A DNA stretch of 64,000 bases from Naegleria gruberi (Eukaryota), in NCBI GenBank assembly GCA_000004985.1, contig GG738908.1. One strand, given 5' to 3'. The notes beneath the pieces were generated by a model, which worked only from the letters and a program-made list of their open reading frames with translations, had not been told where the DNA came from and made no database searches. A program made the position numbers and the translations under genes. This document shows positions 744-63,475 of the stretch, piece after piece; position 1 is the stretch's first letter; every line of letters starts with the position of its first letter.

Positions 744-1327
744 ATGTCTCATGCAATTGGTGTATTGTTATTGTTCATTATTTGTATGATGGTAAGTAGA
801 GTTGCAACCATAAATTAATTTATTCTTCGTGATGATAACAGAGTGTTTTGAGCAATGTTCTCGGCTCAGCCTCATCATCTTCATTATCGGGATGTGTAAC
901 AGATGTCTATTCAATTCCCTATGAAATGTTTGCGAGTCGAATTATTGTTAATAAGGATCAAGATTTGCAATACAAAGTCAAGATTGTAAAGAAGGCTAGT
1001 AATACAAGGAGCAGTAATCTTCTCTCCTCTGATAATACATTGGTAGAGCTCAAGATTGCCTATGATGCTGGATTGAGCGGTGTTGGATCTGTTGGCTATT
1101 CTTTCAATGACACATTAGGATCCATCGTTTTAGAAATCAAATCCAATACTAATGATAATAGTAATAATAATAATAATAATACTGATATCAGCAATCCTAA
1201 CAATTCAACCATTTTCAATTCAACACAACCTGTAAATAATTCATCCAACAATAGTAATTCAACAACAACAACTAATCCTCAAACAAGTACAAATCCAACA
1301 AAACCTTCACCCACCATATTATGGTAA
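744..1327 (+). CDS. Small secreted Asn/Ser/Thr-rich (mucin-like) protein, two exons
   Basis: Proposed structure join(744..791, 842..1327). Exon 1 encodes a signal-peptide-like MSHAIGVLLLFIICMM, followed by a GTAAGT donor at 792. A 50-bp AT-rich intron ends ...ACAG at 841. Exon 2 is the track ORF 848..1327, with poly-N and an S/T/P-rich tail (NDNSNNNNNNTD..NPTKPSPTILW). The splice model is inferred. Confidence 0.45.
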
Positions 1328-1770
1328 AACCGAAAAAGTCTTTGGTTGTTTCATGTGCATCATCGAATAGAGGATTTGTGGAGGGTGTCATTGTTAAATT
1401 GATGAAGAATGGTCTATTCCTTATCTATTCATCAGTTGCATTGTTGTTATTGGGTATTTTCAATTCCATTCATATTACCCAAACAAGAAATGGATTAATA
1501 TTCTCAATGATAGTGTTGGTAATTGCATTTATTGTAATGGGAGGTCAAGTATCACATGCAGTCACAGATCAAGTTTCAGAGATGAAAAGTGGTCTTTCTT
1601 GTGCCATTCCAACTATTACCATCACTGTTCCATCCACATTTGAAATAGATTTAAAACAGGAGGATCCTTCACTTTCACCTGAATTCAAAACAGAAGTGAA
1701 CTTTCTTCCAAAACAAATACAGCTTCATTTCAAAATGGAAGAAATGGATATCAAGGCGAAGAGGCTCTAA
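1321..1770 (+). CDS. Putative small membrane protein (149 aa, two hydrophobic segments)
   Basis: 149-codon ORF with GC content above the flanking intergenic DNA and two TM-like stretches (LFLIYSSVALLLLGIFNSI; LIFSMIVLVIAFIVMGG). No recognisable domain. It cannot be an upstream exon of the 1782 ORF because frame 0 has TAA at 1767 and there is no AG acceptor before 1782. Confidence 0.3.
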   Translation: MVKPKKSLVVSCASSNRGFVEGVIVKLMKNGLFLIYSSVALLLLGIFNSIHITQTRNGLIFSMIVLVIAFIVMGGQVSHAVTDQVSEMKSGLSCAIPTITITVPSTFEIDLKQEDPSLSPEFKTEVNFLPKQIQLHFKMEEMDIKAKRL

Positions 1771-1781
1771 CCATCTCTACT

Positions 1782-4700
1782 ATGTATATTGACAACTGGA
1801 ATGAAATGAATGGACAAACATTCTATGAAGATGATGTTTTATTTGTTGGTTTCTCTGGAACCAGTTTCGAGGGAAGAACGTTAATGAGATTCAGCAACTT
1901 GCAAGGTAAATTACCAGTTGGTGCCTATATTAGCTCTGCATCATTGGATTTGACCTATGTAGCCTGGGTGAAAGGATGTAAGATTAGAGTCAATTATTTG
2001 AATAATACTTGGGTTGTGGCCAAGAAAACAGGTTGGAGATTTAGAAATTACGACCAGAAACTGGAATGGATTAGTGCAGGAGGAGATGTATTATCTAATT
2101 CTTATTCTGTTATGGAAAGTGGAATGAGTGATGATGGAAATCAAATCAAATCCATAGCTCTGGATCCTTATATTGTACAATCGTGGTTTGATGATAATTC
2201 AAAGAATAATGGCGTCATGATTAGCGAGGTTATAGGAACCACCATCAAACCAACAATCTTCGGAGGAAACTCTACTATTAGCTTCAGACCAAGATTAACA
2301 ATAACCTACCAATTACAACCAACCAAGCCTCCACAATACCCAATGGTTTTAGGCTTATTACCACTGAGAATATTTGTACAATCCAAGACTGTTAATTGCT
2401 CACAAATTGATTGTGGCGATGATGATACTGGATCTGGAGCTATCAATGCTCCTTTCAGATCCCTCGCGAAGGCCATCACATTTGCACAACCAAATGATAT
2501 TATTTTGTTGAGAGAGGGTGTTCATGCAGGTAATGTTCAAATTACAAGAAGAAATATTACCATTCAGTCCTACTCAAATGAGAAGGCAATCATTGCTAGC
2601 CCTGTGAATGACCCATCCATTGCAATAGCTCTCTATTTTAGAAGAGATTCTTCGTATTCTACTCTGAGAAATGTAGAACTTGTGGGAGGTTTTGATTATG
2701 CAATCAGATTAGAGTCCAGTATTGATTGGGGTGGAAATAACCTGAAATATGGAGCATCTAATATTGTTATTGAAAATTGTAAGATACACGGTAGTGGCTA
2801 TCACCTAATTAAGATTGACTCTCTTTGTGAGAATGTAAATATTAGAAATAATGAACTTTTTGATGCTGGTAAAAGAGTTAGAACTGGTGGAAGTGCTATT
2901 GTTTGCTATGATACTTTCATGACCAGAATCCAGGATAATTACATTCACCACACTATGGGCGCAGCAGTAATGATCAAGTCAGGTGCCAGAAATTCAATAA
3001 TTGAAAGAAATTATATTAACAAAATTTATGGAGCTGGTATTTTAGTTGGTTTTTATGAGACTGGAGAGTATTTTAGTGATCCAAGCCAGAATCCTCTCTA
3101 TTATCAAGCCGTTAATACCATTGTGAGAAACAATATTCTGAATGATATTTCTGGAGCTGGAATAGGACTTTATTCTGCAAAAAATACACTTATCCTATTC
3201 AACACTATTTGGAAAGCTGCAAAAGATAACCAGGCAGGTATTTTAATTAATGTTGTTCAAACATGGGTCAGTAACAGCTACTCGCCTATTGTACCTTGTA
3301 CCAATGTTACAATCATGAATAATATCATTGGTACAGCTACTGAAAGAATTATAGAGATTCGAACACTCACTAGCTATGTTGATGATTCAGTTGTTGGAGG
3401 ACTAGAGGGTAATATGAATGTATCTTTCAATATTTACTATTCCATGAAGAATGCTAATGGAGTGAATGGTCTCTTTTCTGATCAGAGAAATACTATTGGT
3501 TATGTTGGAGGATTCTCAGGATGGCAAACTAAATATCAGGATTATGGAAGTGTTGAAGGAAATCCTCTAATTGATCCAATAGCTTATTATCCCACCTCAA
3601 CTTCAAATGCTATCGGAAAAGGAATGTATATTCCCTCCACAATCTCAGATTACTTTGGAAGACCAATGAAATCCAAGTTGGTGACTATTGGTGCCTTACA
3701 GTTCCTCAATGATGGTTTCGAAGATGATCCAACCATGAAATATTCCATTACTAACATTATTTACAATCCTTCATTTAATGGAACTGTTCCACCAAAAGAT
3801 GTGCCAACTTGGGCACCTCCAACCACATACAGAACTATTTACGTATCTGCAACCAATGGTAACGACAATTCAGGAAATGGTACCATTGTCAATCCTTTTA
3901 AAACCATCAAAAAGGTTACTGATTCCTCTTTCGCAAAGGATAATGATATTGTAATTGTGAGAGGTGGTATTTATCAAGAAGGAGCCATTCGTATATCTTC
4001 AACCAATTATACTATCAAATCTTATGAGAATGAGATTGTCACGATTGTTAGTGATATTAACAATGGTAATATTTTATGGGGAATTAAAACCTTTTCCAAA
4101 TTTGTAACCATTGAAGGGTTGGAAATTGTTGGTTCATTCTACTATGGACTAATGATTGACTCTTCAGATGTTACCATAAGAAAGGTCAAGATTCATGATA
4201 CAGGTTCAGATTGTATTAAACTTTCTCCTTTCACCAAGAGAATTTCCATTCTCCAGAGCGAAATTTACCATTGTGGAAAGAGAAAAACCTATCAAGCAGG
4301 TAATCCAAATCAAGATTCAGCAAGTGGTGATGGCATTCGATGTGTTAATGTAGATGATGTATTCATTAGTAGAAATTACATTCACGATCTCACTGGAACA
4401 GCCATAAAAACTCAAGGAGGAGGTCTTAGGGCTATAATTGAGAGAAATCTCATTCTTAATATTGGAGGCTTAGGAATTACTTTAGGATTTTATGAAGAAA
4501 CTTCCTATATGGATCCAACACAGAATGTATACTACTATGAAGCTATTGAAGGATTAGTGAGGAATAATATTATAGTCAATGTGCAAGGATGTGGTGTAGG
4601 TCTCTATGCATCGAAAAATTCTAGAGTTTTACACAATACCATTGTGAGTTCAGCCCTTTCGATGCAAGTTCCTATTTTATTGGCTGCTAGTCCTCATACA

Positions 4701-7622
4701 ATCAATAGCGTAGAGATTGCAGGTCAGAGTAATCACAATCCAATGGTTAAGAATAATATTGTGCAAGTTTCAGAATCTGGTATAACTCAGACAATTTATG
4801 AAATCAGAGTTCAGGATGGAGATGCTTTGGATAACTCTAAACTAGATTCAAATTTCAATATTTATTACAGTAATTTCAATAATTACCATGGAAACTCTTT
4901 GGCGAATATCAATTTTATGGATAGAAGATTATCAAGCTACCTGTTTACTTCTGATTTTCATTTATGGAGAGCTCATATTCAATCTGATTACAACTCGTCT
5001 ATAACTGATCCAAAACTTGATTTCAATTTGAACATTGGAGAAGACAGTCCAGCTAGAAATACAGCACCTCTTCTTTCTGAAGTTTCTGAAGATTTCTATG
5101 GTAATTCAAGATCAGAAAACAATAATGACATTGGTGCCCTATTATTCACAACTGATTTGTCAAATTCTTCGTACTATCCTCCTGTAGTTGGAAGTTTATT
5201 ATTGAAGAGTGGTAAAAACGTATGCTCTGGAAATATGAGCTCGTTTGAAACTCCTAGAACCTACTATGTACATAATATTGAGGGTTCGGACACTGATTGT
5301 TTGGGAACTTTTGACATGCCCTTCAAAACTATTCAACAGGCACTCGCGGTAGCTTCTCCCTTCAGTAATATAACGATAAGGTACACTGGAGTGTCCTACA
5401 ATGAATCGTTATCTATCAAGACACCCTATTTGAGAATTTCAACATTTGAGAATGATCCATACGAGGCATTGATTCTTTCTTCAATTTATTCACCATCTAT
5501 TCTTCATACTTTGAGATTTGAATCAACTGCTTTCGGTTGTTCTCTTAGTAGATTACATCTTCAAGGAGGATATTTCTATACTCTTAAAGTAGATGCAGAT
5601 AATATTCAAGTAGATCGCTCAATTATTCACTATTGCGGTACTAAATGTGTGTTTGCCTTAAATGCTGATAATTTCACACTCACCAACAGCGAAGTGTATG
5701 ATTCTGGAATGAGAGATCCAAGCGAAGGTGAAGGAGTTCATGCGGTTGTTTCCCATAACTTTGAATGTAAGGACAACTATGTTCATGACATTACTGCCGA
5801 TGCTATCAAATTAGAAGGAGGGTCATCTCACGCAATAATTGCTGGTAATGCTATTTCTAATGCAGATAGAGGTATTCTAGTTGGTGGAAGAATTGATAAT
5901 TTGGATTTATTTGAAAAATCTAATACTCATCTTTATGAAACGTATAATTCTTCGGTTTATAATAATATTATTTCAAACACATTTGGAGTTGGAATTGCAA
6001 TGTATGGAGCTAAGCAATGTGAAATTTATTTCAATACCATTCTGAATACATGTATTACTAACACACAAGGAGCAGCCATTCATTTGGCTAGTACGAAACA
6101 TAGAAATTTAGTTATTACTCCAGTTGACTCCCTAGTTATTGTAAACAATATTGTTTATAATAGCGATCCAAGCAATGCAGGTGCCATGATTAGAATTGAT
6201 GAAGGTCTTGAGGGTTTTTCAGCATCCATCACTGGATCTGTCGTAATGAACAATAACCTGTATTATTCCAACAAATCATCCGTGTTTGTGGATGGAAGAA
6301 AGGCAACTAAATTTTCAGGAAACTTTAATATTTGGAAAACTCAAATCTCCAACTACTTTGGAAATGGAAACGAAGTCAACAGCTTGAACGTAGCTCCATT
6401 ATTAGATACTGATAATCTTTCTCCAAAGGGCTCTTCACCTGTGATATCTTCTGGACAAATTTCTTCAATAACTCAATCCATAACAAGCGATTTTTATGGC
6501 AATGTCAGAGATTCAATTAATTCTTCTGATATTGGTGCCATAGTGGGTGATGCTCTCATTGTTTCCAAATCAAAGCCAAGAACTATTCCACTGAATATTT
6601 CTAAGATTGCCCTCTCCAAAAGTTCAAACATTGTTAGATATCCTCCAAGCGGAAAGCAATCAACATGGTTTGTTCCTGGCTATACAACAGTTGACGATCC
6701 ATCCCTGTTTGATTTGTCCAATTGTTCTATCTATCCTTCTGATAATCCATGGAATCAAGATATTTCCAATCTACCTGTTCATCCTCGATCTGATGCCTTC
6801 ATTAATAATGTACCAAAGAAGTTTCTTCATGCAGACTTTGGAACGACATACGATGGTGCACTGAATGGTATTCCTTATGTAATTGTAACCAAAGATCAAG
6901 AAAAAGTTGGAATTACTCTGACTTCCTATGCTTCTGAATCTGATCCAGGTCCATATCCATTTCCAGAAGGAGCTCCTATTGAGGGAGGCCCTAATTCTAA
7001 TGGAGATCGACATATAATTGTATTGGAAAAGGATAGTTGTAAGCTGTACGAAACTTGGAGAACTTTCCCTATTTTGAAACAGTATCGTGAATCAGAGGGA
7101 GGAAACTTTTTCACAGCCGAATGTGGAGCTATTTTCGATTTGAAGTCAAACAATTTAAGACCACTTGGATATACTTCATCTGATGCGGCTGGTTTACCTG
7201 TTTATCCAGGACTTGTAAAGTATGACGAAATTGTTGTAAAGAAACAACTCAATCATGCTGTCAGATTCACAGTAATGACAAGTCAGAAAGCTTACATCTT
7301 ACCAGCTACTCACTTTGCCTCCTCAAATACGAATCCAAATATCATGCCAATGGGATTGAGATTGAGAATGAAGGCAACCTATGATTGTTCTCTCTTATCA
7401 GAGGAAATTCAAGTAATTTGCGCAGGATTGAAAAAGTTTGGCATGATTTTGGCAGACAATGGTGGAGATTTTTATGTTTCAGGATCTCCACATCCATTGT
7501 GGGATGATAATCACCTCAATGATATGAAGAAGATTCCATCTCTTGCCTTTGAAGTTGTCTACACTGGAAAGACATGTATTGATCCTAGTTGTAACACATG
7601 GAGAGATGAAATTATCAATTAA
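1782..7622 (+). CDS. Intronless 1946-aa protein with three tandem right-handed parallel beta-helix modules (DUF1565/pectate-lyase-like, PbH1 repeats) plus a C-terminal globular domain of about 430 aa
   Basis: Single 5.8-kb ORF. Three modules each begin with a DUF1565-like signature: G.D..GSG..NAPFRSLAKAI.FAQPNDIILL.EGVH; NGNDNSGNGTIVNPFKTIKKV...DNDIVIVRGGIY; EGSDTDCLGTFDMPFKTIQQALAVASP. These are followed by NxI/NN..I beta-helix rungs (e.g. NIVIENCKIHGSGYHLIKID). There are many NxT/S sites and no N-terminal signal peptide. The internal small ORFs 6607..7153 are alternative-frame noise. Confidence 0.8.
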   Translation: MYIDNWNEMNGQTFYEDDVLFVGFSGTSFEGRTLMRFSNLQGKLPVGAYISSASLDLTYVAWVKGCKIRVNYLNNTWVVAKKTGWRFRNYDQKLEWISAGGDVLSNSYSVMESGMSDDGNQIKSIALDPYIVQSWFDDNSKNNGVMISEVIGTTIKPTIFGGNSTISFRPRLTITYQLQPTKPPQYPMVLGLLPLRIFVQSKTVNCSQIDCGDDDTGSGAINAPFRSLAKAITFAQPNDIILLREGVHAGNVQITRRNITIQSYSNEKAIIASPVNDPSIAIALYFRRDSSYSTLRNVELVGGFDYAIRLESSIDWGGNNLKYGASNIVIENCKIHGSGYHLIKIDSLCENVNIRNNELFDAGKRVRTGGSAIVCYDTFMTRIQDNYIHHTMGAAVMIKSGARNSIIERNYINKIYGAGILVGFYETGEYFSDPSQNPLYYQAVNTIVRNNILNDISGAGIGLYSAKNTLILFNTIWKAAKDNQAGILINVVQTWVSNSYSPIVPCTNVTIMNNIIGTATERIIEIRTLTSYVDDSVVGGLEGNMNVSFNIYYSMKNANGVNGLFSDQRNTIGYVGGFSGWQTKYQDYGSVEGNPLIDPIAYYPTSTSNAIGKGMYIPSTISDYFGRPMKSKLVTIGALQFLNDGFEDDPTMKYSITNIIYNPSFNGTVPPKDVPTWAPPTTYRTIYVSATNGNDNSGNGTIVNPFKTIKKVTDSSFAKDNDIVIVRGGIYQEGAIRISSTNYTIKSYENEIVTIVSDINNGNILWGIKTFSKFVTIEGLEIVGSFYYGLMIDSSDVTIRKVKIHDTGSDCIKLSPFTKRISILQSEIYHCGKRKTYQAGNPNQDSASGDGIRCVNVDDVFISRNYIHDLTGTAIKTQGGGLRAIIERNLILNIGGLGITLGFYEETSYMDPTQNVYYYEAIEGLVRNNIIVNVQGCGVGLYASKNSRVLHNTIVSSALSMQVPILLAASPHTINSVEIAGQSNHNPMVKNNIVQVSESGITQTIYEIRVQDGDALDNSKLDSNFNIYYSNFNNYHGNSLANINFMDRRLSSYLFTSDFHLWRAHIQSDYNSSITDPKLDFNLNIGEDSPARNTAPLLSEVSEDFYGNSRSENNNDIGALLFTTDLSNSSYYPPVVGSLLLKSGKNVCSGNMSSFETPRTYYVHNIEGSDTDCLGTFDMPFKTIQQALAVASPFSNITIRYTGVSYNESLSIKTPYLRISTFENDPYEALILSSIYSPSILHTLRFESTAFGCSLSRLHLQGGYFYTLKVDADNIQVDRSIIHYCGTKCVFALNADNFTLTNSEVYDSGMRDPSEGEGVHAVVSHNFECKDNYVHDITADAIKLEGGSSHAIIAGNAISNADRGILVGGRIDNLDLFEKSNTHLYETYNSSVYNNIISNTFGVGIAMYGAKQCEIYFNTILNTCITNTQGAAIHLASTKHRNLVITPVDSLVIVNNIVYNSDPSNAGAMIRIDEGLEGFSASITGSVVMNNNLYYSNKSSVFVDGRKATKFSGNFNIWKTQISNYFGNGNEVNSLNVAPLLDTDNLSPKGSSPVISSGQISSITQSITSDFYGNVRDSINSSDIGAIVGDALIVSKSKPRTIPLNISKIALSKSSNIVRYPPSGKQSTWFVPGYTTVDDPSLFDLSNCSIYPSDNPWNQDISNLPVHPRSDAFINNVPKKFLHADFGTTYDGALNGIPYVIVTKDQEKVGITLTSYASESDPGPYPFPEGAPIEGGPNSNGDRHIIVLEKDSCKLYETWRTFPILKQYRESEGGNFFTAECGAIFDLKSNNLRPLGYTSSDAAGLPVYPGLVKYDEIVVKKQLNHAVRFTVMTSQKAYILPATHFASSNTNPNIMPMGLRLRMKATYDCSLLSEEIQVICAGLKKFGMILADNGGDFYVSGSPHPLWDDNHLNDMKKIPSLAFEVVYTGKTCIDPSCNTWRDEIIN

Positions 7623-8150
7623 AAGTTTCTTTTTAAGATGAAAAAAGGTGACAGAAGGATCAGGTCGATCTCTTTTCACAGCAATCCAATCTTCCTGACT
7701 TCTGCCACCCATATAGTATATTGGTATATTTCTTTTGCTGAATAGATTGCTGATAATCTTGTTGAAGCAAATGATTTACAATCATGACAACAACAGTAGA
7801 GATTGAACCATTTTGGTTTTCCTTTAATTTGTTTTTGAAAATATCCAAATTGAACTTTCATTAAGGTTGGTTTATAATCTTTCCAACCATTACAACAGGA
7901 TTCCTTGTCTGGTTCATCTTTTACATCCCAAATAAATTGACTTTGTGTTCATTACATTCCTGTAACATGAACAGGTTGCAATAGTTTCAAAGTTGTGTAA
8001 CAAATGAAACGTTGAGATTTTATTAAGGACCTTATTTCATTTCTAATTGAAAACTGATATTTGAGGAGATAAAATGGATCTTATTTGATGTTTCTTATCG
8101 GTGTTATTCTTTACAAAAATATAATACCATAAGAGCGATTATAGCGCAAC

Positions 8151-9791
8151 ATGAAACTAAAGGATCGAGATTCTAATAACCAATCGGACAACCAGGAGTG
8201 TGAAAAGAATGAATTCGAAAAAATGTCGCAAGAGAATGAAGAGGAGATTGTTATTGTTGGTAGTAGTAGCTTGGAGCAGGAGGAAAACGGCATGAAGAGA
8301 ATATTTAGTTGGATTTCGTCTCGTTTAAAATCTGAAAAAACTAACAATGGACCAAAACTTTATTCCAAACGATGGGGAATTTTATTAATTTATGGCTTGA
8401 CTTTATTAATTTCCATCATGTACCAATCCACATTTTCGTCCATAAGGTATTTAGTCAACTTTCTAATAGAAATTACAACTAACTGAATAATAATTAGCAC
8501 CATAGCAATGCAATATTACAAAATTCCAAACCAAAACTGGAAAATCAACATGATGACCCTCATTTACATGATCCTAAACATTCCCGCCTCAATCACAGGT
8601 TCCTTCCTCACCAAAAAGTTTGGCCTCAGATTTGGCATGATTCTCGTGGCGTGGTTAAATTTCATTGGTGGTTGCATTCGATGTTTAGGATACAAAAAGG
8701 GAAACGAAACATTCTTTTGGATTGCATTTGGTGGTCAGATTTTCTGTGCCCTAGCTCAACCATTGGCCTTAAATAGTGCAACACTTTTGGCATTTAATTG
8801 GTTTGGTGAGAAGGAGAGAACTGTTGTGTCTGTGGTTAGTGTATTGATGGCCATATTTGGAGGTGGTGCTTCTTTTGCAATTGGTCCAAGTTTACTAACT
8901 GCTGGATCGACGGATATGTCAGGTTCTGAATTTGGAATGTTGACTTTTTTGGGAGCTCAGGTTTTGATTGCCACGATGAATTTATTGTTGGTTGTAGTAT
9001 TTTTCAAAGCAAATCCTCCAACGCCACCTATTCTACTCAAGAGCTCAAAATCAGAAGAAACCATTGCTTCCATCAATAGTGAGCCAGCAATGGAGGACGA
9101 AAGTAGTCGAAAGAATGACGAAACTTTATCACTAATTGACATTGGCACAAAACAAACATTCTTTGAAGGTGTCAAATCAATCATCACAGACATTCATTTC
9201 ATCAACTTGGCTCTTGCCTTTACCTTTGTCAATTCTGTATTTAGCTCATTCGCCTCAATTCTAAATCAAGTAATTCAATCGAAAGGATACACACCATTCG
9301 ATGGTTCCAAATTCAACATAATCATGATGGTTTGCAGTGTGATTGGATCCATCGTCATGGGAATTCTCTTTGACAAGACGAAACGTTACAAACTCATTGC
9401 CATGATGAGCAGTTTATTAGCAACTTTTGGATTTGCATGTTTTGCAACTGTCATGATTTGGAATCGATCTGATTTTCTATTTGGAATGGGTTTATTTTCT
9501 CATTTGTTTATTGGGCTATTTGCCATTCCAACACTTCCTCTCATTGCACAAATGATTGCTGACGTGACCTTTCCAGTCTTACCTTCCACTTCGGCTGCTC
9601 TTGCTGGAGGTTTTGGAACTGTTTGTGCTGGAATTTATTTGATTATTATTAATTTTATTCAGGAATATGTTTCGAATGAAACTTCTTCGATTGTGATATT
9701 GTGGATGGATGTTGGAATGATGCTAATGTGTTTTATCATGTTGAGTTTATTTAGAGGAAAATTCAAAAGAACACTTTCAGAAAAATCCTAA
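8151..9791 (+). CDS. Major facilitator superfamily transporter (FLVCR/MFSD7-like), two exons
   Basis: Proposed structure join(8151..8446, 8498..9791). Exon 1 ends ...RWGILLIYGLTLLISIMYQSTFSSI at a GTATTT donor (8447). A 51-bp in-frame intron removes the TGA at 8484 and ends at AG 8496-8497. Exon 2 encodes 12-TM-like segments (GMILVAWLNFIGGCIRCLG; GGGASFAIGPSLL; AGGFGTVCAGIYLIII). Confidence 0.75.
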
Positions 9792-9908
9792 TTCTTAATT
9801 TCCTAAAATAGTAATAGTTTCAAATTTATTGAAAATTGAACTAATTGTAAATTAATTGTAATATATTATAAATGGATGCTTGACCATCAATATTGCTAAA
9901 ATTGCGAA

Positions 9909-10205
9909 TTATTTCCTTATCTTCCTATTATATTCAATTATGAAATCTTGAATTTTAATGTAAATATTATCCTGAACTGCATAATCATGAACCTCTTCAA
10001 ATCCCTCAACATAATCTGATTCATCATATTTGCTGGGATTTACTTGAGAAAGACCCATTTCTTCGACTAGATCTTCAATTTGCTTTACAATGCAATTGAT
10101 TTTGTAAAATTCCAAGTCGAGTGGGAGAGAATTTCTCTCTGTCAGGTGATTTAAAACTTGGTTTAGAACCCTTTCGACTGCCTTGTCGCCGGCACTGCTG
10201 AACAT
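9909..10205 (-). CDS. Hypothetical small acidic protein (98 aa)
   Basis: ATG-initiated ORF lying between the MFS gene and the 3' end of the PARP gene. It has coding-like composition but no domain I can recognise. Confidence 0.35.
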   Translation of the reverse strand: MFSSAGDKAVERVLNQVLNHLTERNSLPLDLEFYKINCIVKQIEDLVEEMGLSQVNPSKYDESDYVEGFEEVHDYAVQDNIYIKIQDFIIEYNRKIRK

Positions 10206-10465
10206 GGCGAAACATTTTTTTGAATCGTTTCAATTGTTGTTCTTCTTGATTAGTAGAAATTTATGGTAAAATTACAAATATGGATAATTTCTTTTTTAGA
10301 TATTTTCAAAAAACATAATTTAATAATAAATTGAACTAGTAGGAATGTAAATTATTGGTCATCTGAAATGATCTTGTTGATAAGATTTGATATTTATTTT
10401 GTGTTGAGATGTGAACTAATTCTCTCACATCGTGAAGTGAAATCAATAATTCTTTGATTGCTTCC

Positions 10466-13400
10466 TTATTGTCTCTTATATTTAATAATAAATTCAGGAT
10501 AACATTGACATTTATCATAGACAATGAATTCTCTATATGAATTAGTTGAAGTATTTGATTGACCAATAACACTATCATAAACTCTATTGTTACTTCCTGA
10601 AATTTCAGGTGGTCTTCTCTGATTATTCATCACTTGTTTTGTGAAATGAATTTGTCTTCCCATTACAACTCTACATAATAATAGAGTATATTCATTGGAA
10701 TGATCAGGTGTACAATATTGATCACTCTTTGAACAATATTCTGCAAAATAAATACCTGCTCCAAATAATCCATTTAAATTTGCAACTCTTTCATCAAATC
10801 CATGTTCTGCAATTGTATTCACAAATTCAGGTTTTGTTCCATGCCATAAATATTTTTCATTCATATTAGAATTTAATCCAATTGTTTTCATCCATTCAAA
10901 TGATTTTGATGTTTTTGAAATATTTTCAGTTTGAACTTGAAGTGAATTAATTGAATCTTGATATGAAATTAAATGATTCATTCTTGATTTGAATGAAGTG
11001 AAAAGTGTTGAATTTTCAATTCTTGAAACACTTGAAACAATTAATTTAGAATAATTAATTCTTGATAATTGATCTCTTCCAGATCCAAGTGTTGCAGAAT
11101 TACACGATACATTCATAATTTCTTGCATTGTATCTTTTAAATATTGTGTAACATCAACAGTGTAATATCTTTTCGAATAAGTTTGGAATGTGTTTCTTTT
11201 CCAATAACTTGGAAGTGAAATTGTTAATTGTTTGGATTTTGATTCTTTAATTTCCTTTTCCATCTTCTCAATTTCAATTTCTTTTTGTTTCAAATTTTGT
11301 AATTTCTTTGAAATTTCTTCACTTTTCTTTGACTTTGAATTTGAAAATTGTTTCTTTTCCTTTTCTAGATTTAAAATTTCAATTTTCAAATTTTCATGAT
11401 TTTTTTTCATTTTCAATTCAAATTCATTCAATTGATTCTGATAATCTTTCAATTCCTTTGATTGATTTTCCATTAATTGAACATGTTTCTGAATTTTAAC
11501 TTCATCTAATAATGTTCCTTTCAAAAAGAATTCATTTGCAAGTGCATCAGATGCAAATGGTCTCAAATTTACATCTGAATTCAAACATTCATCACATAAA
11601 TTATTCAATGATTTGAATTGTTTCAATTCTTGTTCTTTCATACAATTTTTAATTGTTTTACCAAATGCAAACATGTCAGATTTAAATGTTGCTGATGTTT
11701 TTCCATTCACTAATTCAGGTGCTAAATAATCCAATGTACCAGCAATTCCACTTGTTCTTGTGAATAAATTCATTGTTCTACTTGTTATATCTAAACTAAT
11801 ATCAAAATCACCTAAAATAATTGGATAATATTCTGTGATCATNNNNNNNNNNNNNNNNNNNNNNNNNNNNNNNNNNNNNNNNNNNNNNNNNNNNNNNNNN
11901 NNNNNNNNNNNNNNNNNNNNNNNNNNNNNNNNNNNNNNNNNNNNNNNNNNNNNNNNNNNNNNNNNNNNNNNNNNNNNNNNNNNNNNNNNNNNNNNNNNNN
12001 NNNNNNNNNNNNNNNNNNNNNNNNNNNNNNNNNNNNNNNNNNNNNNNNNNNNNNNNNNNNNNNNNNNNNNNNNNNNNNNNNNNNNNNNNNNNNNNNNNNN
12101 NNNNNNNNNNNNNNNNNNNNNNNNNNNNNNNNNNNNNNNNNNNNNNNNNNNNNNNNNNNNNNNNNNNNNNNNNNNNNNNNNNNNNNNNNNNNNNNNNNNN
12201 NNNNNNNNNNNNNNNNNNNNNNNNNNNNNNNNNNNNNNNNNNNNNNNNNNNNNNNNNNNNNNNNNNNNNNNNNNNNNNNNNNNNNNNNNNNNNNNNNNNN
12301 NNNNNNNNNNNNNNNNNNNNNNNNNNNNNNNNNNNNNNNNNNNNNNNNNNNNNNNTGTTATCACTTTCAGTGTAAATTCCTTCAATTTCAATAATATTTG
12401 AATGTTTTAACTTGTTTGTAATTNTCAATTCCTTTTCTAAACCTTCAATTGATTTCTTATCTTTTAAATTATATTGTTTAATTATATGTTTTTTATCATT
12501 TAAATCAATTCCAATAAAAACATTATGATTTCCATTCCAATTTTGAATTGGTTTAATTTCTTTAAACATTTCAGGTGTCATTTCATTAATATTTAAATTA
12601 GATAATAAATCACTTGCCATGTTTGATTTAATATCAAATCCAATTGTCGTTAATTGAAGAAATTTCATTTTAATTTCATTTAATTTTTGAATATTTTCCT
12701 TCAAATTAGATTTTAATTCAATTAAATTAAATTCTTTAATTTGAATTTCATCTTTAATATCATTCATTTCATCTTCATTATTAACATGTTTCAATTCATC
12801 TTTTAATCCTTCAATATCTAGATTTAACATATTTAAATTTCTTGTAATTCTTGTTTTTTGTCTTTGAATGGTTTTAAATTGTTCAGATAAATTTGAATAA
12901 TTATTCATAATATTTATAATATTTTGTAACATTTCATATTTTTCAATTATATATGGAATTGTTTCTTGAATTAATAATTTACAATTTAATTCTTGTTTTT
13001 GATAATAATTATATAATTCTAAAATATTCATTTGATCATTGTCTGAAATTAATACTTTACAATTTGATAATATATTATTTAAATATAATTCTTCTTGTTC
13101 TGATAATTCCATTGCTTTTTGTAAATTATTTGAAAATTGTGTCAAATCAATTTCATTACAATAATTGATAGAGTTTACAATATTTGATAATTGTTTTGTA
13201 ACTTGTTGTAATATTGTTTTAGTTTCATTTCCAAATTTATTATGAGTTGGAACTATATTAATACTGTTTATATTCTTAATAGATTGTTCACTCATTTCAA
13301 TACTGTCAAATAATTCTTGTTTAATAAATTGAGAATTAAATTCATTAAATAATTCTAATTTTTCACTTAATACTTCTAAATAAGATTGTAATTTAAATAA

Positions 13401-14954: not shown

Positions 14955-15560
14955 TTTTTTAAATTTGTTTTTGTCTACACGTCAAAGGAGAAATGACGAG
15001 TGACTTGACTGAACAATAAATTTGACAGCTCGATCAATGTCAACAATGAAGATCTGTTGGTGATAGAACGAACATAAGACCACTCCACACTGCTAAAACC
15101 CACGAGGGCAATCATTCAGCATGATTAAACAGGAAGATTGGCAACTTCAACAATTGTTGCCATCATTTACTCACAAAAATCTAATAAAAGCGTGAATTCT
15201 TCTCCTTCAATCGCAACAACAATACCACAATATTTAAAAACTCGTGCAATATTCATCAATTTCATTCAATTAAATATTTATATAGTATCGAATCCTTGCG
15301 AGAGAAGACCTTTCTACTACTATTGAATCTTACAACAATCTGATTCAACACTTTAAAACCTTGCTTAAATAAACATAATTTTTTAATAAGATTAAATGGT
15401 GATGGGATTATTTTACACAGTTATTGTGAAGAATTATTTTAGGAGAGTTGTCTCTGTGAAAAGAGATAAAGGTAGAGTAAATTATTGTAAATGATGTCAG
15501 ACGTAACAAGACGAATAAGTGGTGGTGGTGGTGAACAAGTAAGGATTCTCTCATTGTAAA

Positions 15561-56074: not shown

Positions 56075-57151
56075 ATGCCTTCTAACAACAATTTCTCTCT
56101 AATTTCACTTCTTTCCTTTACAATTTTACTTTCTCTCGCCAATTTCACCCTTTCGAATAACAATAACTTAAAGATTGCTTCCTTTAATACTGCTCTAGTA
56201 CCTGGCACACCAGTCAATGTCAAGAAAATCATAGAAACCATACCAAAAGACCTCGATGTAGTCTTTCTCCAAGAAGTTTGGCTCCAATCTCATTCCCACC
56301 TAATTGCTGAAGAGCTGAAATCCTCATATCCATACTCCTTCCATGGACACAAGGAAGTTTTGAATGAAGCATCTTGTACGGATGATTCATTCCATAGATT
56401 CGCTCTTCCTTTCCTTCATTGTGTCCGTGAAAATAATTTGACACTTTCGTGGACAACTTTGGGACCATGTGCTGAATTTTTGAGTCGAGCTGCCTATGGA
56501 AATTTTAAATGTATATCCTGTGTCCTGACATCTATCGTTGAGAATAAGAATATGGCCAATTGTTACACTCCTGGACACACAGGTCAGGAATTTCTCTATG
56601 ACGGCTCCAATGGATTGATGGTTCTGAGTAAGACACCAATCTCACGTGCCAATTACACTTCCTATCCTTCATTTTTATTGAGTAGAGGATTATTAGAGAT
56701 GTGTATCAATGGTTTATATATTATGGAATCACACTTTCCTTTTAATTTTGGGATTGACTTGCCAGTAATGTATCAACCAGAGTTTTCTAGGATGGTTATC
56801 ATGAAGAGACCTAATATCTTGGTTGGCGATTTGAATAGTGGACCAATGACGCAACCAGAAGGTTATGAGACACTTGCTGGATATGGATATCAGTCAATTG
56901 ATCCAAATAAGGCAACTTTTTGTGTGAATGGATTAAATTGGGAAAGTGGCGATTGTTCTGATGATCCAGAAAGAAATACTGGAATGGATCATATCATGGT
57001 TGATAAATTTAGTAGAATTTTGGAATGGAATTTCAATAATTCCTTCAAACTCCAATTATTTGGAGACTCAACTCCAACTCCGAGTGATCATTTGGGTATC
57101 ACAACTGAGCTGAATTATAATATGGCTAGAAAACATCCATATTGTGTCTAA
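56075..57151 (+). CDS. Secreted endonuclease/exonuclease/phosphatase (EEP) family protein (sphingomyelinase/nuclease-like)
   Basis: Signal peptide (MPSNNNFSLISLLSFTILLSLANFTLS). EEP motifs VVFLQEVW, GDLNSGP and SDHLG. Cys-rich. Single exon. Confidence 0.65.
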   Translation: MPSNNNFSLISLLSFTILLSLANFTLSNNNNLKIASFNTALVPGTPVNVKKIIETIPKDLDVVFLQEVWLQSHSHLIAEELKSSYPYSFHGHKEVLNEASCTDDSFHRFALPFLHCVRENNLTLSWTTLGPCAEFLSRAAYGNFKCISCVLTSIVENKNMANCYTPGHTGQEFLYDGSNGLMVLSKTPISRANYTSYPSFLLSRGLLEMCINGLYIMESHFPFNFGIDLPVMYQPEFSRMVIMKRPNILVGDLNSGPMTQPEGYETLAGYGYQSIDPNKATFCVNGLNWESGDCSDDPERNTGMDHIMVDKFSRILEWNFNNSFKLQLFGDSTPTPSDHLGITTELNYNMARKHPYCV

Positions 57152-60352: not shown

Positions 60353-63300
60353 ATGTCATCACCACAACATGCAACCCTGCTTCTCGCCTTTTTNNNNNNN
60401 NNNNNNNNNNNNNNNNNNNNNNNNNNNNNNNNNNNNNNNNNNNNNNNNNNNNNNNNNNNNNNNNNNNNNNNNNNNNNNNNNNNNNNNNNNNNNNNNNNNN
60501 NNNNNNNNNNNNNNNNNNNNNNNNNNNNNNNNNNNNNNNNNNNNNNNNNNNNNNNNNNNNNNNNNNNNNNNNNNNNNNNNNNNNNNNNNNNNNNNNNNNN
60601 NNNNNNNNNNNNNNNNNNNNNNNNNNNNNNNNNNNNNNNNNNNNNNNNNNNNNNNNNNNNNNNNNNNNNNNNNNNNNNNNNNNNNNNNNNNNNNNNNNNN
60701 NNNNNNNNNNNNNNNNNNNNNNNNNNNNNNNNNNNNNNNNNNNNNNNNNNNNNNNNNNNNNNNNNNNNNNNNNNNNNNNNNNNNNNNNNNNNNNNNNNNN
60801 NNNNNNNNNNNNNNNNNNNNNNNNNNNNNNNNNNNNNNNNNNNNNNNNNNNNNNNNNNNNNNNNNNNNNNNNNNNNNNNNNNNNNNNNNNNNNNNNNNNN
60901 NNNNNNNNNNNNNNNNNNNNNNNNNNNNNNNNNNNNNNNNNNNNNNNNNNNNNNNNNNNNNNNNNNNNNNNNNNNNNNNNNNNNNNNNNNNNNNNNNNNN
61001 NNNNNNNNNNNNNNNNNNNNNNNNNNNNNNNNNNNNNNNNNNNNNNNNNNNNNNNNNNNNNNNNNNNNNNNNNNNNNNNNNNNNNNNNNNNNNNNNNNNN
61101 NNNNNNNNNNNNNNNNNNNNNNNNNNNNNNNNNNTATTGATGGTATCAATTCTTTCACAATTACTGGCTCTACATTTGCAAACAATTCCAAATTACACAT
61201 GACAACTGTTTTCAGCTCTACCTTGAGAGGTTTGACTTTTGAGGGAAATGAAAATGTTCTTTCTGCGAAAGGAATTGGTTCTTTTACATTGGAGCATTCA
61301 AATTTTACTCGCAATGGTAATCCAATTTATATTTCAGGAAATCAATTGACAAATCAATTTAGAAAAATTAGTTTTTGTTTATTTGAGGACAATTGGTCAA
61401 CCAGCAATGGTCTTATAACATTGGAACAGTTTCCCACACATGTGGAATTTAACAATTTCAGAAATAATTGGGCAGTGAATGGAGGAATAATTTATGCAAC
61501 TAGTTCCATAATTACTTTGGATAAAAATCAGTTTGTGGATACTTATGCAAGATTCATTGAAGGTTGTTTAGTTGATAATTGTGGAAATGGAGGAATTGCC
61601 TATATTTCTAATACTATTTTGTACATGTCCAATCTCATTATTCAAAATACTCAAGCAATTAGAGGAGGAATTGTTTATTCTGAGGGAAATTCTCGAATTC
61701 AAACCCAAAATTGTGATATTTCAGATAATATTGCTTCTTTGGCTGGTAATTTATTTTACTTTGGAGATGTTATTGATTTTAATGCCCAAAATTATTCGAA
61801 ATCTGACCTGAGTTCGAGGAAAACAACTCGAGCACTTTGGAGAACGGAATCTAGTCAACCTTACGATAATCAACGAATTGCCATCCAACCCGGGCAAACA
61901 ATACAATTGGATTTTGAGTATTTTGACATGTTTGACAACAGATTCAATAGAACAAATTCTGCTCCAATTATTAAGGCAAGTGATTCATCCAACATTCTTG
62001 TATCCCTCGTTTCAATTGATCCACTTTCCAATACTGACTTTAAATTCTTCTTGCAAGTGTCAGAAACTTCAAAAAGCTCAAATATTTCAGTATATCTCCC
62101 ATTCCATGACTTTACATTTGAGATTGATATTGATATTATTGGATGCCCTTTTGATTATGGTTTATCACCACTTTTAAATTCACACTACAACGTGTGTGTC
62201 TATAGAGGTTATATTATAATTGTATTCTCCTCTATTGGCATTGCAATCATTCTACTGGTTGCAATTTATTTATTGATCTATGTTGTTAAGAGATTACTCA
62301 AATTGAGAAAGAAGGAAATGACTGAAAAGGAAATTGCACAAAAGATTATTGATAAGAATTTTGTTTTTTCTATCAATACTGATAATGAGCACACTCCATT
62401 ATTATCAAAACTGGAAGTTGCCAAGATTAGTAATATCTTAATTCCAATTGAGGATATTGAAATCATCAAAAGAATTGGAGAAGGAGCTAATGGTACTGTA
62501 TACTTAGCTAAATGGCAAGGAAATCGTGTAGCTCTAAAAAGTTTAAAATTCGAAAGGGATAGCACTGACTTTGAAAATGAAGCATCTCTCCTTAATAATT
62601 TGAGACATCCTTCTATTGTGAGATTTTATGGAATTGTAGTGTCTTCTTCAGTTAAATACATGGTTACAGAGTTTGTGGAAAATGGAAGTTTGGATGCAGC
62701 CATTCATAATTCCAAAATTGGAAAGAAGAAACTTGATTTACAAACAAAATTACAAATTTTGAGAGGAATTGCAAATGGAATGAACTATCTTCATAATTTG
62801 AAAACTCCATGTCTTCACAGAGATTTGAAATGTCAAAATATTCTTCTCAATTCCAACATGGAACCAAAGGTTACAGATTTTGGATTGTCAAAATTGACTT
62901 TAAATTCAATGACATTGACTTGCAATATTGGAACAGCTCTTTACATGGTAAGTTTTCAAATTTAAGAGAGTTAAACCGAGTCAATCATTGTAAAGTCTCC
63001 TGAATTATTTGGAAGTGGTTACAAAATTTCATACAAATTGGACGTTTACAGTTTCTCCATCATCATGTACGAATTATTCTTTGAGGAAACTCCATTCTTT
63101 AGCTCATCAGCCAAGATGAGAAAATTTATCATTTCATCCACTGAACAATCACCAGAAGATGATCATGATACAATGAATTTTGGTTTTGCAATTCCAGTAA
63201 AAGTTTCGAAAGGAGAACGGCCAATGCTTCCCTGGACTAATGATGAGGAATGTGAAATGTGGATTAAGGAATTTATAGAACCCTATGAAGGAGGAGGAGG

Positions 63301-63475
63301 AGGAAATAATAGTAGTAGCAAAAGATCTTCATCCCTATTGAAAGTATTGCAAGTTAGCTTACAATATATTAACTTGATGAAGGAATGTTGGAGTCAGGAT
63401 CCAAATCAAAGACCGAACTTTTCCCAAATTGAGACGGAATTATTCAACATGATCAATGAAATTTCCAACCAATAA
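60353..63475 (+). CDS. Receptor-like TKL protein kinase with a PMP-like/right-handed beta-helix ectodomain, a single TM and a C-terminal kinase domain; two exons, ectodomain interrupted by an assembly gap
   Basis: Proposed structure join(60353..62947, 62996..63475), with N gap 60394..61134. Likely start MSSPQHATLLLAF (signal) in an AAAAAAAATG context; the track ORF begins further upstream at 60254. The ectodomain has PMP/GGA(I/L)-type repeats (NGGIIYATSSIITLDKNQF; GNGGIAYISNTILYMSNLIIQNTQAIRGGIVYSEGNS). TM: IIIVFSSIGIAIILLVAIYLLIYVV. Kinase: IGEGANGTVYLAKW..VALKSL...HRDLKCQNILL..KVTDFGLSKL..GTALYM, then a 48-bp intron (GTAAGT..GTAAAG, 62948..62995), then SPELFGS..DVYSFSIIMYELF..CWSQDPNQRPNF. 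Confidence 0.75.
60394..61134. other. Assembly gap (741 N) inside the ectodomain of the receptor kinase gene
   Basis: Run of N characters. The X-only ORFs 60289..61314 and 60369..61202 are gap artefacts. Confidence 0.99.

What the first reader, a model, noticed from the sequence alone, without database searches (positions are those of the whole stretch)
1782..7622. 5.8-kb intronless ORF with three bacterial-type DUF1565-like beta-helix modules in an intron-rich genome (candidate horizontally acquired gene family)
Most neighbouring genes carry short introns, but this 1946-codon ORF has none. Its three modules each start with the GxDxNxGxxxxPFxTIxxAxxxAxxxDxIxxxxGxY signature, which is typical of bacterial or archaeal right-handed beta-helix proteins (DUF1565 / pectate-lyase superfamily). 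Codon usage is host-like (AT-rich), so any transfer would be old. There is no signal peptide at the annotated ATG. A related PMP-like beta-helix forms the ectodomain of the receptor kinase at 60353..63475, which suggests that the fold has been recruited into signalling receptors in this genome.
Basis: partly seen in the sequence, partly recalled or inferred. Interest (0 to 1): 0.65.

Follow-up and report, generated by a model that had tools for sequence, protein, structure and literature searches.

The report
Naegleria giant beta-helix surface protein gene
The long open reading frame is real and belongs to a Naegleria gruberi gene for a huge cell-surface protein, probably sugar-polymer-degrading, that is built from bacterial-type parts. 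The same protein design also occurs in a malawimonad and in Volvox-like algae, and this copy's 5' end carries two reading-frame breaks.

Summary
The 1946-codon ORF (1782..7622, +) is real. The window is Naegleria gruberi NEG-M. The gene is longer than reported. Orthologues in N. fowleri, N. lovaniensis and a metagenomic heterolobosean extend about 240 aa upstream. That part maps to 744..1781: a signal-peptide mini-exon, a 50-nt intron, a conserved N-region and two hydrophobic segments. In this assembly it is spread over three frames by two -1 frame breaks.

Bacterial affinity of the parts is supported. A Naegleria-specific transfer is not: colinear orthologues exist in Gefionella, Volvox and Edaphochlamys, and the eukaryotic C-domains share derived characters. 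Codon usage is host-like.

The receptor-kinase ectodomain at 60-63 kb shows no detectable relationship to this protein.

Best reading: a surface-anchored, multi-modular glycan-degrading enzyme, anciently assembled from bacterial domains, and possibly a recent pseudogene in NEG-M.

The parts
744..791 (+). Exon 1: ATG plus 15 codons (MSHAIGVLLLFIICMM), the start of a signal peptide
   Evidence: Sequence read directly. KD hydropathy maximum 2.56 over aa 1-28 of the spliced product. N. fowleri has an equivalent 5' mini-exon followed by a GTAAGT intron.
792..841 (+). 50-nt spliceosomal intron (GTAAGT...ACAG), phase 0
   Evidence: Sequence read directly. Splicing joins frame 0 to the frame-2 ORF, whose product aligns with N. 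fowleri aa 16 onward. The equivalent intron is in L038.
842..1318 (+). Frame-2 coding segment: the rest of the signal peptide, a conserved roughly 100-aa N-terminal region (CVTDVYSIPYEMF...) and an S/T/N/P-rich linker
   Evidence: tblastn of N. lovaniensis and N. fowleri N-termini gives 902..1306 in frame +2, 36-40% identity.
1306..1327 (+). Frame break 1 (frame 2 to frame 1, a -1 shift), with a TAA stop at 1325-1327 in frame 2
   Evidence: Orthologue alignments switch frame here. About 20 nt separate the two alignments, which is too few for an intron. A longer intron that removes part of the low-complexity linker was not excluded.
1327..1722 (+). Frame-1 coding segment with two hydrophobic, transmembrane-like segments (about 1411..1476 and 1492..1545), followed by the conserved CAIPTITI...EDPSLSPEFKTEV motif
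   Evidence: tblastn 1327..1734 in frame +1, 38-41% identity. KD windows reach 2.12 and 2.55. Two hydrophobic segments sit at the same place in P0001-P0003.
1712..1722 (+). Frame break 2 (frame 1 to frame 0, a -1 shift)
   Evidence: The orthologue sequence ...FKTEVSF.PQQYTTSFQNGRDGY is fully accounted for by frame 1 up to ...FLPKQ and frame 0 from TASFQNGRNGY. This leaves no room for an intron.
1719..2342 (+).
   Evidence: NCBIfam NF033679: 33.8 bits (cut-off 34), E 3e-8, profile positions 10-164 of 164. Seven of 8 eukaryotic orthologue domains match, best E 9e-12. The CBM96 link comes from PMC9971899.
2343..3764 (+). Beta-helix module 1 (aa 188-661): DUF1565-type N-cap, helix core with NYIHH at aa 386, and a C-terminal cap (DYFGRP...IGALQF)
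3780..5201 (+). Beta-helix module 2 (aa 667-1140), with NYIHD at aa 865
5202..6596 (+). Beta-helix module 3 (aa 1141-1605), with NYVHD at aa 1332; its cap gives a weak choice-of-anchor Q match at aa 1545-1586
6597..6725 (+). Linker, predicted disordered
   Evidence: pLDDT below 50 for residues 1-70 of the model of 6462..7619.
6726..7583 (+). C-terminal domain (aa 1649-1934), a member of a very large uncharacterised bacterial secreted-protein family. Invariant motifs: HxDFGT, GDRH, YE, TSxDAAGL, HAxRFT, PAxHxA, PMGxRxRxK, ADNG
7584..7622 (+). Short Cys-containing tail (TGKTCIDPSCNTWRDEIIN) and the stop codon
   Evidence: The Cys after 'TG' is present in all 13 eukaryotic C-domains and absent from the bacterial ones shown.

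Best explanation
This is the Naegleria gruberi copy of a giant (about 2275 aa when repaired) secretory, membrane-anchored, multi-modular carbohydrate-active protein.

Inferred mechanism:
- A signal peptide takes the protein into the secretory pathway.
- Two adjacent hydrophobic segments form a membrane hairpin, which leaves both the small N-terminal region and the roughly 2000-aa body outside the cell.
- The DNRLRE (CBM96-like) domain binds an acidic polysaccharide.
- The three pectate-lyase-fold beta-helix modules each keep the same NY[IV]H[DH] motif. They bind and probably cleave or modify uronic-acid-type or other extracellular polysaccharides, such as bacterial capsule or biofilm matrix met during feeding.
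- The C-terminal domain is a second, still uncharacterised, probably catalytic glycan-active unit.

Origin: the domains are of bacterial derivation, but the fused architecture was assembled once, long ago, in eukaryotes. It is now patchily present in Heterolobosea, a malawimonad and volvocine algae.

Status in this assembly: the 5' part that encodes the signal peptide and anchor is cut off from the body by two -1 frame breaks. This allele is therefore either a very recent pseudogene or carries assembly errors.

Shown: the domain anatomy, the homologies, the fold of module 2, the distribution and the frame breaks. Inferred: the topology, the substrate class, catalysis and the direction and timing of transfer.
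For: - Organism: window 56075..57148 is identical to N. gruberi XP_002671103.1.
- Orthologues: N. lovaniensis 66%, N. fowleri 65%, and a JGI metagenome eukaryotic contig 49%.
- Upstream continuation, intron and frame breaks.
- Hydrophobic segments, 21 N-x-S/T sequons and 26 Cys.
- Domains: Beta_helix 122 bits and DUF1565 cap; DNRLRE, with the CBM96 relation from PMC9971899.
- NY[IV]H[DH] occurs once per module. It lies within a pattern that also retrieved the bacterial relatives.
- C-domain: at least 7998 clusters at E<=1e-3, and 1489 representatives at E<=1e-30 for the module 3 plus C-domain query. About 66 columns are invariant, including His, Asp and Glu residues.
- Bacterial fusions of the C-domain carry typical CAZyme accessory modules or catalytic partners: GH44, galactose-binding-like, malectin, fn3, PKD, BACON and SLH.
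- Recent purifying selection on the C-terminal 1335 nt: 10 synonymous against 5 non-synonymous differences to a wild relative.
- Eukaryotic distribution and colinearity.
- Trees and shared characters.
Against: - No catalytic residues could be assigned.
- The AlgE/AlgG 'DPH' motif is absent. The Pel9A Ca-site and Lys residues were not mapped.
- The C-domain has no fold or sequence relative of known function. Its 'enzyme' status rests on conservation and on its fusion partners.
- Bacterial gene neighbourhoods of the C-domain are not consistent: one of five has beta-helix neighbours.
- Monophyly of eukaryotic C-domains has only 57% NJ bootstrap. The N. gruberi domain is closer in identity to bacteria (60-62%) than to Gefionella (52%) or chlorophytes (41-47%).
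- Trees are distance-based, and the bacterial module sample is only 12 sequences, chosen by similarity.
- No expression data are available, and the frame breaks could mean the gene is dead in this strain.
Confidence: 0.6

Rival explanations
1. One reading: a single, Naegleria-lineage-specific horizontal transfer of a ready-made bacterial gene, later adapted to host codon usage.
For: The C-domain is 60-62% identical to bacterial proteins, more than to other eukaryotes. All domain families are predominantly bacterial or archaeal. The large ORF has no internal intron.
Against: Colinear orthologues covering DNRLRE, module 1 and module 2 (E 1e-133 and 1e-101) occur in Gefionella and Volvox. Eukaryote-specific shared characters are present in the C-domain. 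Eukaryotic and bacterial modules split at 85% bootstrap. No bacterial protein with the fused architecture appeared among the best 150 of 6849 hits or in 12 bacterial module loci.
Confidence: 0.1
2. The protein is a non-catalytic surface adhesin or lectin. The beta-helices and the DNRLRE domain only bind prey or substrate glycans, as in bacterial beta-helix adhesins.
Against: The top 25 fold matches are nearly all lyases, epimerases, hydrolases or phage depolymerases; the main exception is NosD. A conserved His-Asp-containing motif is kept in all three modules and in the bacterial relatives. About 66 columns of the C-domain alignment are invariant. The C-domain occurs fused to GH44 and to carbohydrate-binding modules in bacteria.
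Confidence: 0.2
3. On functional status: the two frame breaks are real, and the NEG-M copy is a recently inactivated pseudogene, for example through relaxed selection in a long-term axenic laboratory strain.
For: There are two -1 breaks within about 400 nt and none in the following 5.8 kb. The second break leaves no room for an intron. N. fowleri reads the same region in one frame. No exact gene product for the 1946-aa ORF or for the 149-aa frame-1 ORF is on record.
Against: The 5.8-kb body is completely open and retains every invariant C-domain residue. The comparison with a wild relative shows purifying selection, 10 synonymous to 5 non-synonymous. The scaffold is a draft with N gaps, so local base-call errors are possible. 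No independent reads could be examined, and two metagenome scans found nothing.
Confidence: 0.5
4. The region is bacterial contamination or a mis-assembly.
For: The domain families are bacterial-type.
Against: Codon usage and GC3 are host-like. Flanking genes are eukaryotic, and one matches an N. gruberi RefSeq protein exactly. Orthologues lie on a 984-kb N. fowleri contig and a 392-kb N. lovaniensis contig, among eukaryotic genes in N. fowleri. A spliceosomal intron is conserved. A wild relative's metagenome contig is colinear with the ORF's 3' end and the next gene.
Confidence: 0.01

Closest known systems
Right-handed beta-helix polysaccharide lyases and epimerases: PL9 pectate lyase Pel9A (1ru4), alginate epimerase/lyase (8ja4), AlgE4 A-module (2pyg), Vibrio cholerae RbmB (9ozd)
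   Different: Sequence identity is only 14-15%. The AlgE/AlgG DPH catalytic motif is absent, and the Pel9A catalytic and Ca-binding residues were not mapped. Here three modules sit in tandem in one eukaryotic membrane-anchored protein, with an extra unknown domain.
Single-module bacterial secreted beta-helix proteins (DUF1565 cap plus Beta_helix) of Bacteroidota, Planctomycetota, Dehalococcoidia and Peribacteria MAGs
   Same: They are 31-37% identical over almost the whole module (aa 12-443 of 465). They share the [RVL][IV][QR]DN[YM]IH[DH] and GFY[ET]xxEY motifs and the same N-cap.
   Different: They have one module per protein and bacterial sorting or anchoring domains (T9SS tail, SLH, Calx-beta, Big_9). 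There is no DNRLRE or C-domain in the same ORF, and no C-domain within +-6 kb. None is characterised.
DNRLRE domain (NF033679) / CBM96 alginate-binding module
   Same: The N-domain matches nearly the full profile, positions 10-164 of 164. Seven of 8 eukaryotic orthologue domains match, with E down to 9e-12. PMC9971899 reports about 30% identity between CBM96 and DNRLRE domains, and DNRLRE domains in alginate, hyaluronate and pectate lyases.
   Different: The window's own score (33.8) is just under the curated cut-off (34). No hit to any solved structure was found by sequence or profile. Binding specificity is unknown.
Uncharacterised bacterial secreted or lipoprotein family of about 320-350 aa (for example MAG proteins of Nannocystaceae, Polyangiaceae, Pyrinomonadaceae and Ca. 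Schekmanbacteria)
   Same: The C-terminal domain is 60-62% identical to the best of them over about 280 aligned columns, and it keeps every invariant residue.
   Different: In bacteria the domain is usually alone behind a signal peptide or lipobox and a low-complexity linker, or it occurs in 2-3 tandem copies, or with GH44, malectin, GBD, PKD or SLH. In eukaryotes it is fused to, or inserted into, beta-helix modules and has an added Cys tail. No function, Pfam family or structure is known.
   Same: Both are expected to form parallel beta-helices.
   Different: No Pfam PMP or Beta_helix hit in the kinase ectodomain at E<=0.1, and no significant similarity to this ORF. A family relationship is not supported.

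Membership tests
Pfam PF13229 Beta_helix (right-handed parallel beta-helix repeats) | Whole-protein score above the gathering cut-off (25.9 bits) | tested here: met
Pfam PF07602 DUF1565 | A match to the 257-position profile above the cut-off (20.3 bits) | tested here: inconclusive
   24.2 bits is above the cut-off, but only profile positions 3-37 (the N-terminal cap) of module 1 are matched. 'DUF1565-like cap' is justified; full membership is not.
NCBIfam NF033679 DNRLRE domain | Score at or above the curated cut-off (34 bits) across the domain | tested here: inconclusive
   The window domain scores 33.8 bits, E 3e-8, profile 10-164 of 164. Seven of 8 eukaryotic orthologue domains match at E<=0.01, best 9e-12.
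NCBIfam NF041518 choice-of-anchor Q domain | Score at or above the cut-off (25 bits) | tested here: not met
   21 bits, E 3e-4, for the module 3 cap only. This is a resemblance of the DF[YF]G...DIGA cap, not membership.
Polysaccharide lyase family 9 (Pel9A type) | The beta-helix fold | tested here: met
Polysaccharide lyase family 9 (Pel9A type) | Ca2+-binding acidic cluster and catalytic Lys base (from established knowledge of PL9) | not tested
   No residue-level superposition was available from the tools.
Mannuronan C5-epimerase / alginate lyase (AlgE, AlgG type) | Catalytic DPH(D/E) motif, YG(F/I)DPH(D/E) in AlgE (from established knowledge) | tested here: not met
Uncharacterised bacterial C-domain family (no database name) | All invariant motifs retained: HxDFGT, GDRH, YE, TSxDAAGL, HAxRFT, PAxHxA, PMGxRxRxK, ADNG | tested here: met
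   About 66 columns are invariant across 30 sequences, including the window's. The HMM score is 465 bits.
Prokaryote-to-eukaryote horizontally transferred gene (operational criteria) | The closest homologues outside the recipient clade are prokaryotic | tested here: inconclusive
   By identity this holds for the C-domain: 60-62% to bacteria against 41-52% to other eukaryotes. By architecture, colinearity and tree it does not, because the closest relatives are eukaryotic.
Prokaryote-to-eukaryote horizontally transferred gene (operational criteria) | Absence from other eukaryotic lineages (patchy or unique distribution) | tested here: inconclusive
   The gene is not unique to Naegleria. It is present in Malawimonada and Chlorophyceae, but among the best 150 hits only these few eukaryotes were recognised. 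The distribution is patchy, not eukaryote-wide.
Prokaryote-to-eukaryote horizontally transferred gene (operational criteria) | The eukaryotic clade is nested within prokaryotic diversity in a supported phylogeny | not testable with these tools
   Only unrooted NJ trees could be built here. Eukaryotes form one group among 273 bacterial C-domains, but rooting and nesting need maximum-likelihood analysis with broad sampling.
Chlamydial PMP-repeat family (link to the receptor kinase 60353..63475) | Pfam PMP-repeat or Beta_helix match, or significant similarity to the ORF | tested here: not met
   Only kinase-type domains, plus a sub-cut-off DUF6019 hit at aa 338-390 (E 0.046), were found in 61220..62965 at E<=0.1. 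The best BLASTP E to the ORF is 0.067. Part of the ectodomain lies in an N gap.

The most novel reading that the evidence does not exclude
The roughly 290-aa C-terminal domain defines a large, entirely uncharacterised enzyme family with a fold not represented in the PDB. It would be a candidate new carbohydrate-active (or cell-wall-active) catalytic family, present in thousands of bacteria. It was captured once by eukaryotes, where it became fused to, or even inserted inside, polysaccharide-lyase-like beta-helix modules. The resulting giant gene then moved between distant eukaryotes (Heterolobosea, malawimonads, volvocine algae), or else is a relic of a very early eukaryotic acquisition.
Probability: 0.35. 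Interest if true: 0.65.

Novelty: new variant of a known kind. Interest (0 to 1): 0.45.

Why it matters
- It corrects the gene structure: the true start, a 5' intron, a signal peptide, a membrane hairpin and two frame breaks. No N. gruberi protein for this locus turned up in the searches run here.
- It shows that what looks like a lineage-specific bacterial import is a multi-domain design shared by three very distant eukaryotic groups. That makes it a useful test case for eukaryote-to-eukaryote transfer against ancient acquisition with loss.
- It singles out a very large, highly conserved bacterial protein family with no Pfam, NCBIfam or structural relative. Its repeated association with glycan-degrading modules makes its function directly testable.
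- N. fowleri has an orthologue, so a giant surface glycan-active protein could bear on feeding or host-matrix interaction. That last point is speculation.

Tried and rejected
- A third homologous-protein search with aa 1-665 returned nothing. It is uninformative, because the word-index searches also missed known relatives: one search missed P0004, and one search missed the Naegleria orthologues.
- The afdb50 library was unavailable.
- The first alignment for the genome scan was too divergent.
- Bacterial gene neighbourhoods of the C-domain showed no consistent partner. Beta-helix neighbours in one lineage are only remotely similar to the modules.
- Viral contigs held only 31-46% identical relatives, so a viral vector has no support.
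- Two degenerate-pattern scans of JGI metagenomes for independent Naegleria copies spanning the frame breaks found nothing.
Whether JGI/NCBI annotate this locus therefore remains unknown.
- Short introns do not explain the frame breaks. This is rejected for break 2 and unlikely for break 1.
- Literature searches found no paper on this protein family.
Full report
**1. Observation**

GC is 0.36, like the flanking coding sequence. GC3 is 0.27. Relative synonymous codon usage correlates at r = 0.92 with the pooled neighbouring ORFs, within the range the neighbours show among themselves (0.57-0.96).

Pfam finds Beta_helix (PF13229) at 122 bits in five stretches. It also finds a DUF1565 match restricted to the cap at aa 212-247, and a weak NosD match. 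NCBIfam adds a DNRLRE domain at the N-terminus and a weak choice-of-anchor Q match at aa 1545-1586.

Self-comparison confirms three homologous modules at aa 188-661, 667-1140 and 1141-1605. They are 27-32% identical pairwise, E 1e-33 to 1e-57. Each starts with G.D..[GC].G....PF and each contains one NY[IV]H[DH] motif.

**2. Organism and true gene limits**

Window 56075..57148 is identical to N. gruberi XP_002671103.1 on a 259-kb scaffold, so the window is the N. gruberi NEG-M draft. It contains N gaps at 11843-12355, 36088-36137 and 60394-61134.

Full-length relatives are N. lovaniensis (2206 aa, 66% identity), N. fowleri (2185 aa, 65%) and a 2074-aa protein (49%) on a JGI metagenome contig. 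That contig also carries Sec5, MFAP1, LITAF and EF-hand genes, so it is eukaryotic.

These relatives are about 240 aa longer at the N-terminus.

Read directly from the sequence, an ATG at 744 opens a 16-codon exon, MSHAIGVLLLFIICMM. It is followed by GTAAGT...ACAG (792..841, 50 nt), and splicing joins in phase to the frame-2 segment. N. fowleri has the equivalent mini-exon and intron.

The spliced and repaired product is about 2275 aa. It has a signal-peptide-like N-terminus and two adjacent hydrophobic segments encoded at about 1411..1476 and 1492..1545. No other hydrophobic segment occurs in the remaining 2000 aa, which carry 21 N-x-S/T sequons and 26 Cys. The two hydrophobic segments are present at the same place in all three orthologues.

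So 'intronless' applies only to the big exon, and the missing signal peptide is explained by the upstream exon.

**3. The frame breaks**

Going from frame 2 to 1 and from 1 to 0 requires two -1 shifts.

- At the second break (about 1719-1722), every residue of the orthologous sequence ...FKTEVSF.PQQYTTSFQNGRDGY is accounted for on one side or the other. An intron is therefore excluded. The cause is a 1-nt deletion or a base-call error.
- The first break (1306-1327) lies at the end of a low-complexity linker. A very short gap makes an intron unlikely, but a longer intron that removes part of the linker was not excluded.
- N. fowleri reads the whole region in one frame.

Two breaks in 400 nt against none in the next 5.8 kb argue against a uniform error rate. 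Set against that, the body is intact and keeps all invariant residues of its C-domain. A 97.3% identical contig from an environmental metagenome (ERZ929261) differs in the last 1335 coding nt by 10 synonymous and 5 non-synonymous changes, which indicates purifying selection until recently.

I could not obtain independent reads over the breaks. A recent pseudogene and an assembly error are about equally likely.

**4. What the parts are**

- **N-domain.** Seven of 8 eukaryotic orthologue N-domains match NF033679 (DNRLRE), best E 9e-12. The window's own domain scores 33.8 bits against a cut-off of 34, over profile positions 10-164 of 164. PMC9971899 reports that the alginate-specific CBM96 module is about 30% identical to DNRLRE domains, and that these occur in alginate, hyaluronate and pectate lyases.
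- **Bacterial module relatives.** Whole-module relatives (31-37% identity over aa 12-443) were found in Bacteroidia, Saprospiraceae, Planctomycetota, Dehalococcoidia, Peribacteria and Gemmataceae MAGs. They are single-module secreted proteins with T9SS tails, SLH, Calx-beta or Big_9/cadherin domains.
- **C-domain (aa 1649-1934).**
These are typically 320-350-aa proteins with a signal peptide or lipobox and a low-complexity linker.
  - The exhaustive search with module 3 plus the C-domain found 6849 representatives at E<=1e-3 and 1489 at E<=1e-30.
  - About 66 alignment columns are invariant: HxDFGT, GDRH, YE, TSxDAAGL, HAxRFT, PAxHxA, PMGxRxRxK, ADNG.
  - There is no Pfam, NCBIfam or PDB-sequence match, even with a profile.
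  - In bacteria the domain also occurs in 2-3 tandem copies, and fused to GH44, a galactose-binding-like domain, malectin, fn3, PKD, BACON and SLH. This pattern is typical of catalytic domains of glycan-degrading enzymes.
  - Gene neighbourhoods gave no consistent partner.

**5. Evolutionary placement**

Among the top multi-domain hits of the exhaustive search are eukaryotic proteins with the same design: Gefionella okellyi (Malawimonada, 2917 aa), Volvox africanus (1662 aa) and Edaphochlamys debaryana (1768 aa). There are also unnamed relatives.

N. gruberi aa 2-1010 aligns colinearly with Gefionella 503-1595 (31% identity, E 1e-133). Aa 1021-1937 aligns with 1974-2914. Aa 1-1017 aligns with Volvox 73-1145 (E 1e-101).

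HMM mapping gives these architectures:

| Lineage | Architecture |
|---|---|
| Gefionella | [fn3 x3][DNRLRE][M1][M2 core][C-domain][M2 cap][M3][C-domain] |
| Chlorophytes | [DNRLRE][M1][M2 core][C-domain][M2 cap] |
| Naegleria | [DNRLRE][M1][M2][M3][C-domain] |

In Gefionella and the chlorophytes, one C-domain is inserted inside a beta-helix module.

In an NJ tree of 286 C-domains, all 13 eukaryotic copies form one group (bootstrap 57%). The Naegleria clade has 100% and the chlorophytes 99%. All eukaryotic copies share a Cys after the terminal 'TG' and lack the Gly of the bacterial 'IPGxAFE'. Naegleria, Gefionella copy 2 and P0128 share a QYR/EYR insertion. Eukaryotic modules separate from the 12 bacterial modules at 85% bootstrap.

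Among the proteins inspected, no bacterial protein combined the module and the C-domain. The simplest reading is that the domains are of bacterial origin and were fused once in a eukaryote. Vertical descent with much loss, or eukaryote-to-eukaryote transfer, then followed. The conserved 5' intron and host-like codon usage show long residence. IMG/VR contigs hold only 31-46% identical relatives, so a viral vector has no support.

**6. The receptor-kinase claim**

The gene at 60-63 kb is broken by an N gap. Its readable ectodomain has GG[AI]-type repeats to the eye. Pfam finds only the kinase domain plus a sub-cut-off DUF6019 hit, and BLASTP against the ORF gives nothing better than E 0.067. tblastn of the ORF finds no paralogue anywhere else in the window. 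'Recruitment of the same fold into receptors' is not supported by sequence.

**7. Mechanism (inferred)**

The signal peptide, membrane hairpin and roughly 2000-aa extracellular body suggest a surface-anchored enzyme. The CBM96-like domain and three lyase-fold modules suggest binding and cleavage, or modification, of acidic extracellular polysaccharides. For a bacterivorous amoeba, bacterial capsule or biofilm matrix is the obvious substrate. For volvocine algae, their own extracellular matrix is. The C-domain probably adds a second, unknown glycan-directed activity. A purely adhesive role remains possible.

**8. Verdict**

It is a new variant of a known kind: a multi-modular beta-helix carbohydrate-active protein built from bacterial-type domains. 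Its most novel component is the uncharacterised C-domain family, together with the unexpected distribution across eukaryotes. Interest is moderate, 0.45.

Noticed in passing
window 10387-14967 and 34328-37149: A large inverted duplication. 10387-11398 matches 37149-36138 at 98% identity, 12833-14387 matches 36081-34535 at 90%, and 14390-14967 matches 34908-34328 at 85%. Both copies are AT-rich, contain assembly gaps (N runs 11843-12355 and 36088-36137) and encode coiled-coil-like ORFs. Tandem repeats lie at 13968-14829.
   Followed up: partly
Any statement about that ectodomain is therefore incomplete.
   Followed up: partly
L038 13262-13264 (N. fowleri VFQX01000007.1): The N. fowleri orthologue model changes frame here, and its module 3 is 34 aa shorter than in N. 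lovaniensis. This is probably an assembly frameshift masked by a false intron in the annotation.
   Followed up: partly
L001 (ENA ERZ929261 contig k127_95565) against window 6286-10588: An environmental metagenome contig is 97.3% identical to the window, so it comes from a wild close relative of N. gruberi NEG-M. Its first 123 nt do not match the window, which suggests a chimeric contig end or a rearrangement.
   Followed up: partly
P0124 aa 1205-2094; P0131 aa 779-1661; P0137, P0160, P0161: In the Gefionella and chlorophyte orthologues, a complete C-domain is inserted inside a beta-helix module. It sits between the helix core (HMM positions up to about 335) and the C-terminal cap (positions from about 336). 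This is a nested-domain arrangement not seen in Naegleria.
   Followed up: partly
P0125-P0130, P0195 (bacterial proteins): Some bacterial proteins carry two or three tandem copies of the uncharacterised C-domain. One 2252-aa protein combines it with Ig-like repeats and a GH44 domain.
   Followed up: partly
window 8151-9791: The next gene downstream encodes an MFS-type transporter (MFS_1 and Sugar_tr hits on the L001 counterpart). It has one 51-nt intron at 8447..8497, inferred from the only GT..AG pairs that keep the frame open.
   Followed up: partly
L005 10750-12333; L006 7566-10967: In one bacterial lineage with many Ser/Thr kinase genes, the stand-alone C-domain gene lies next to one or two Beta_helix / Pel9A-like genes, with a GH123 gene nearby. 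These beta-helix proteins are only remotely similar to the Naegleria modules.
   Followed up: partly
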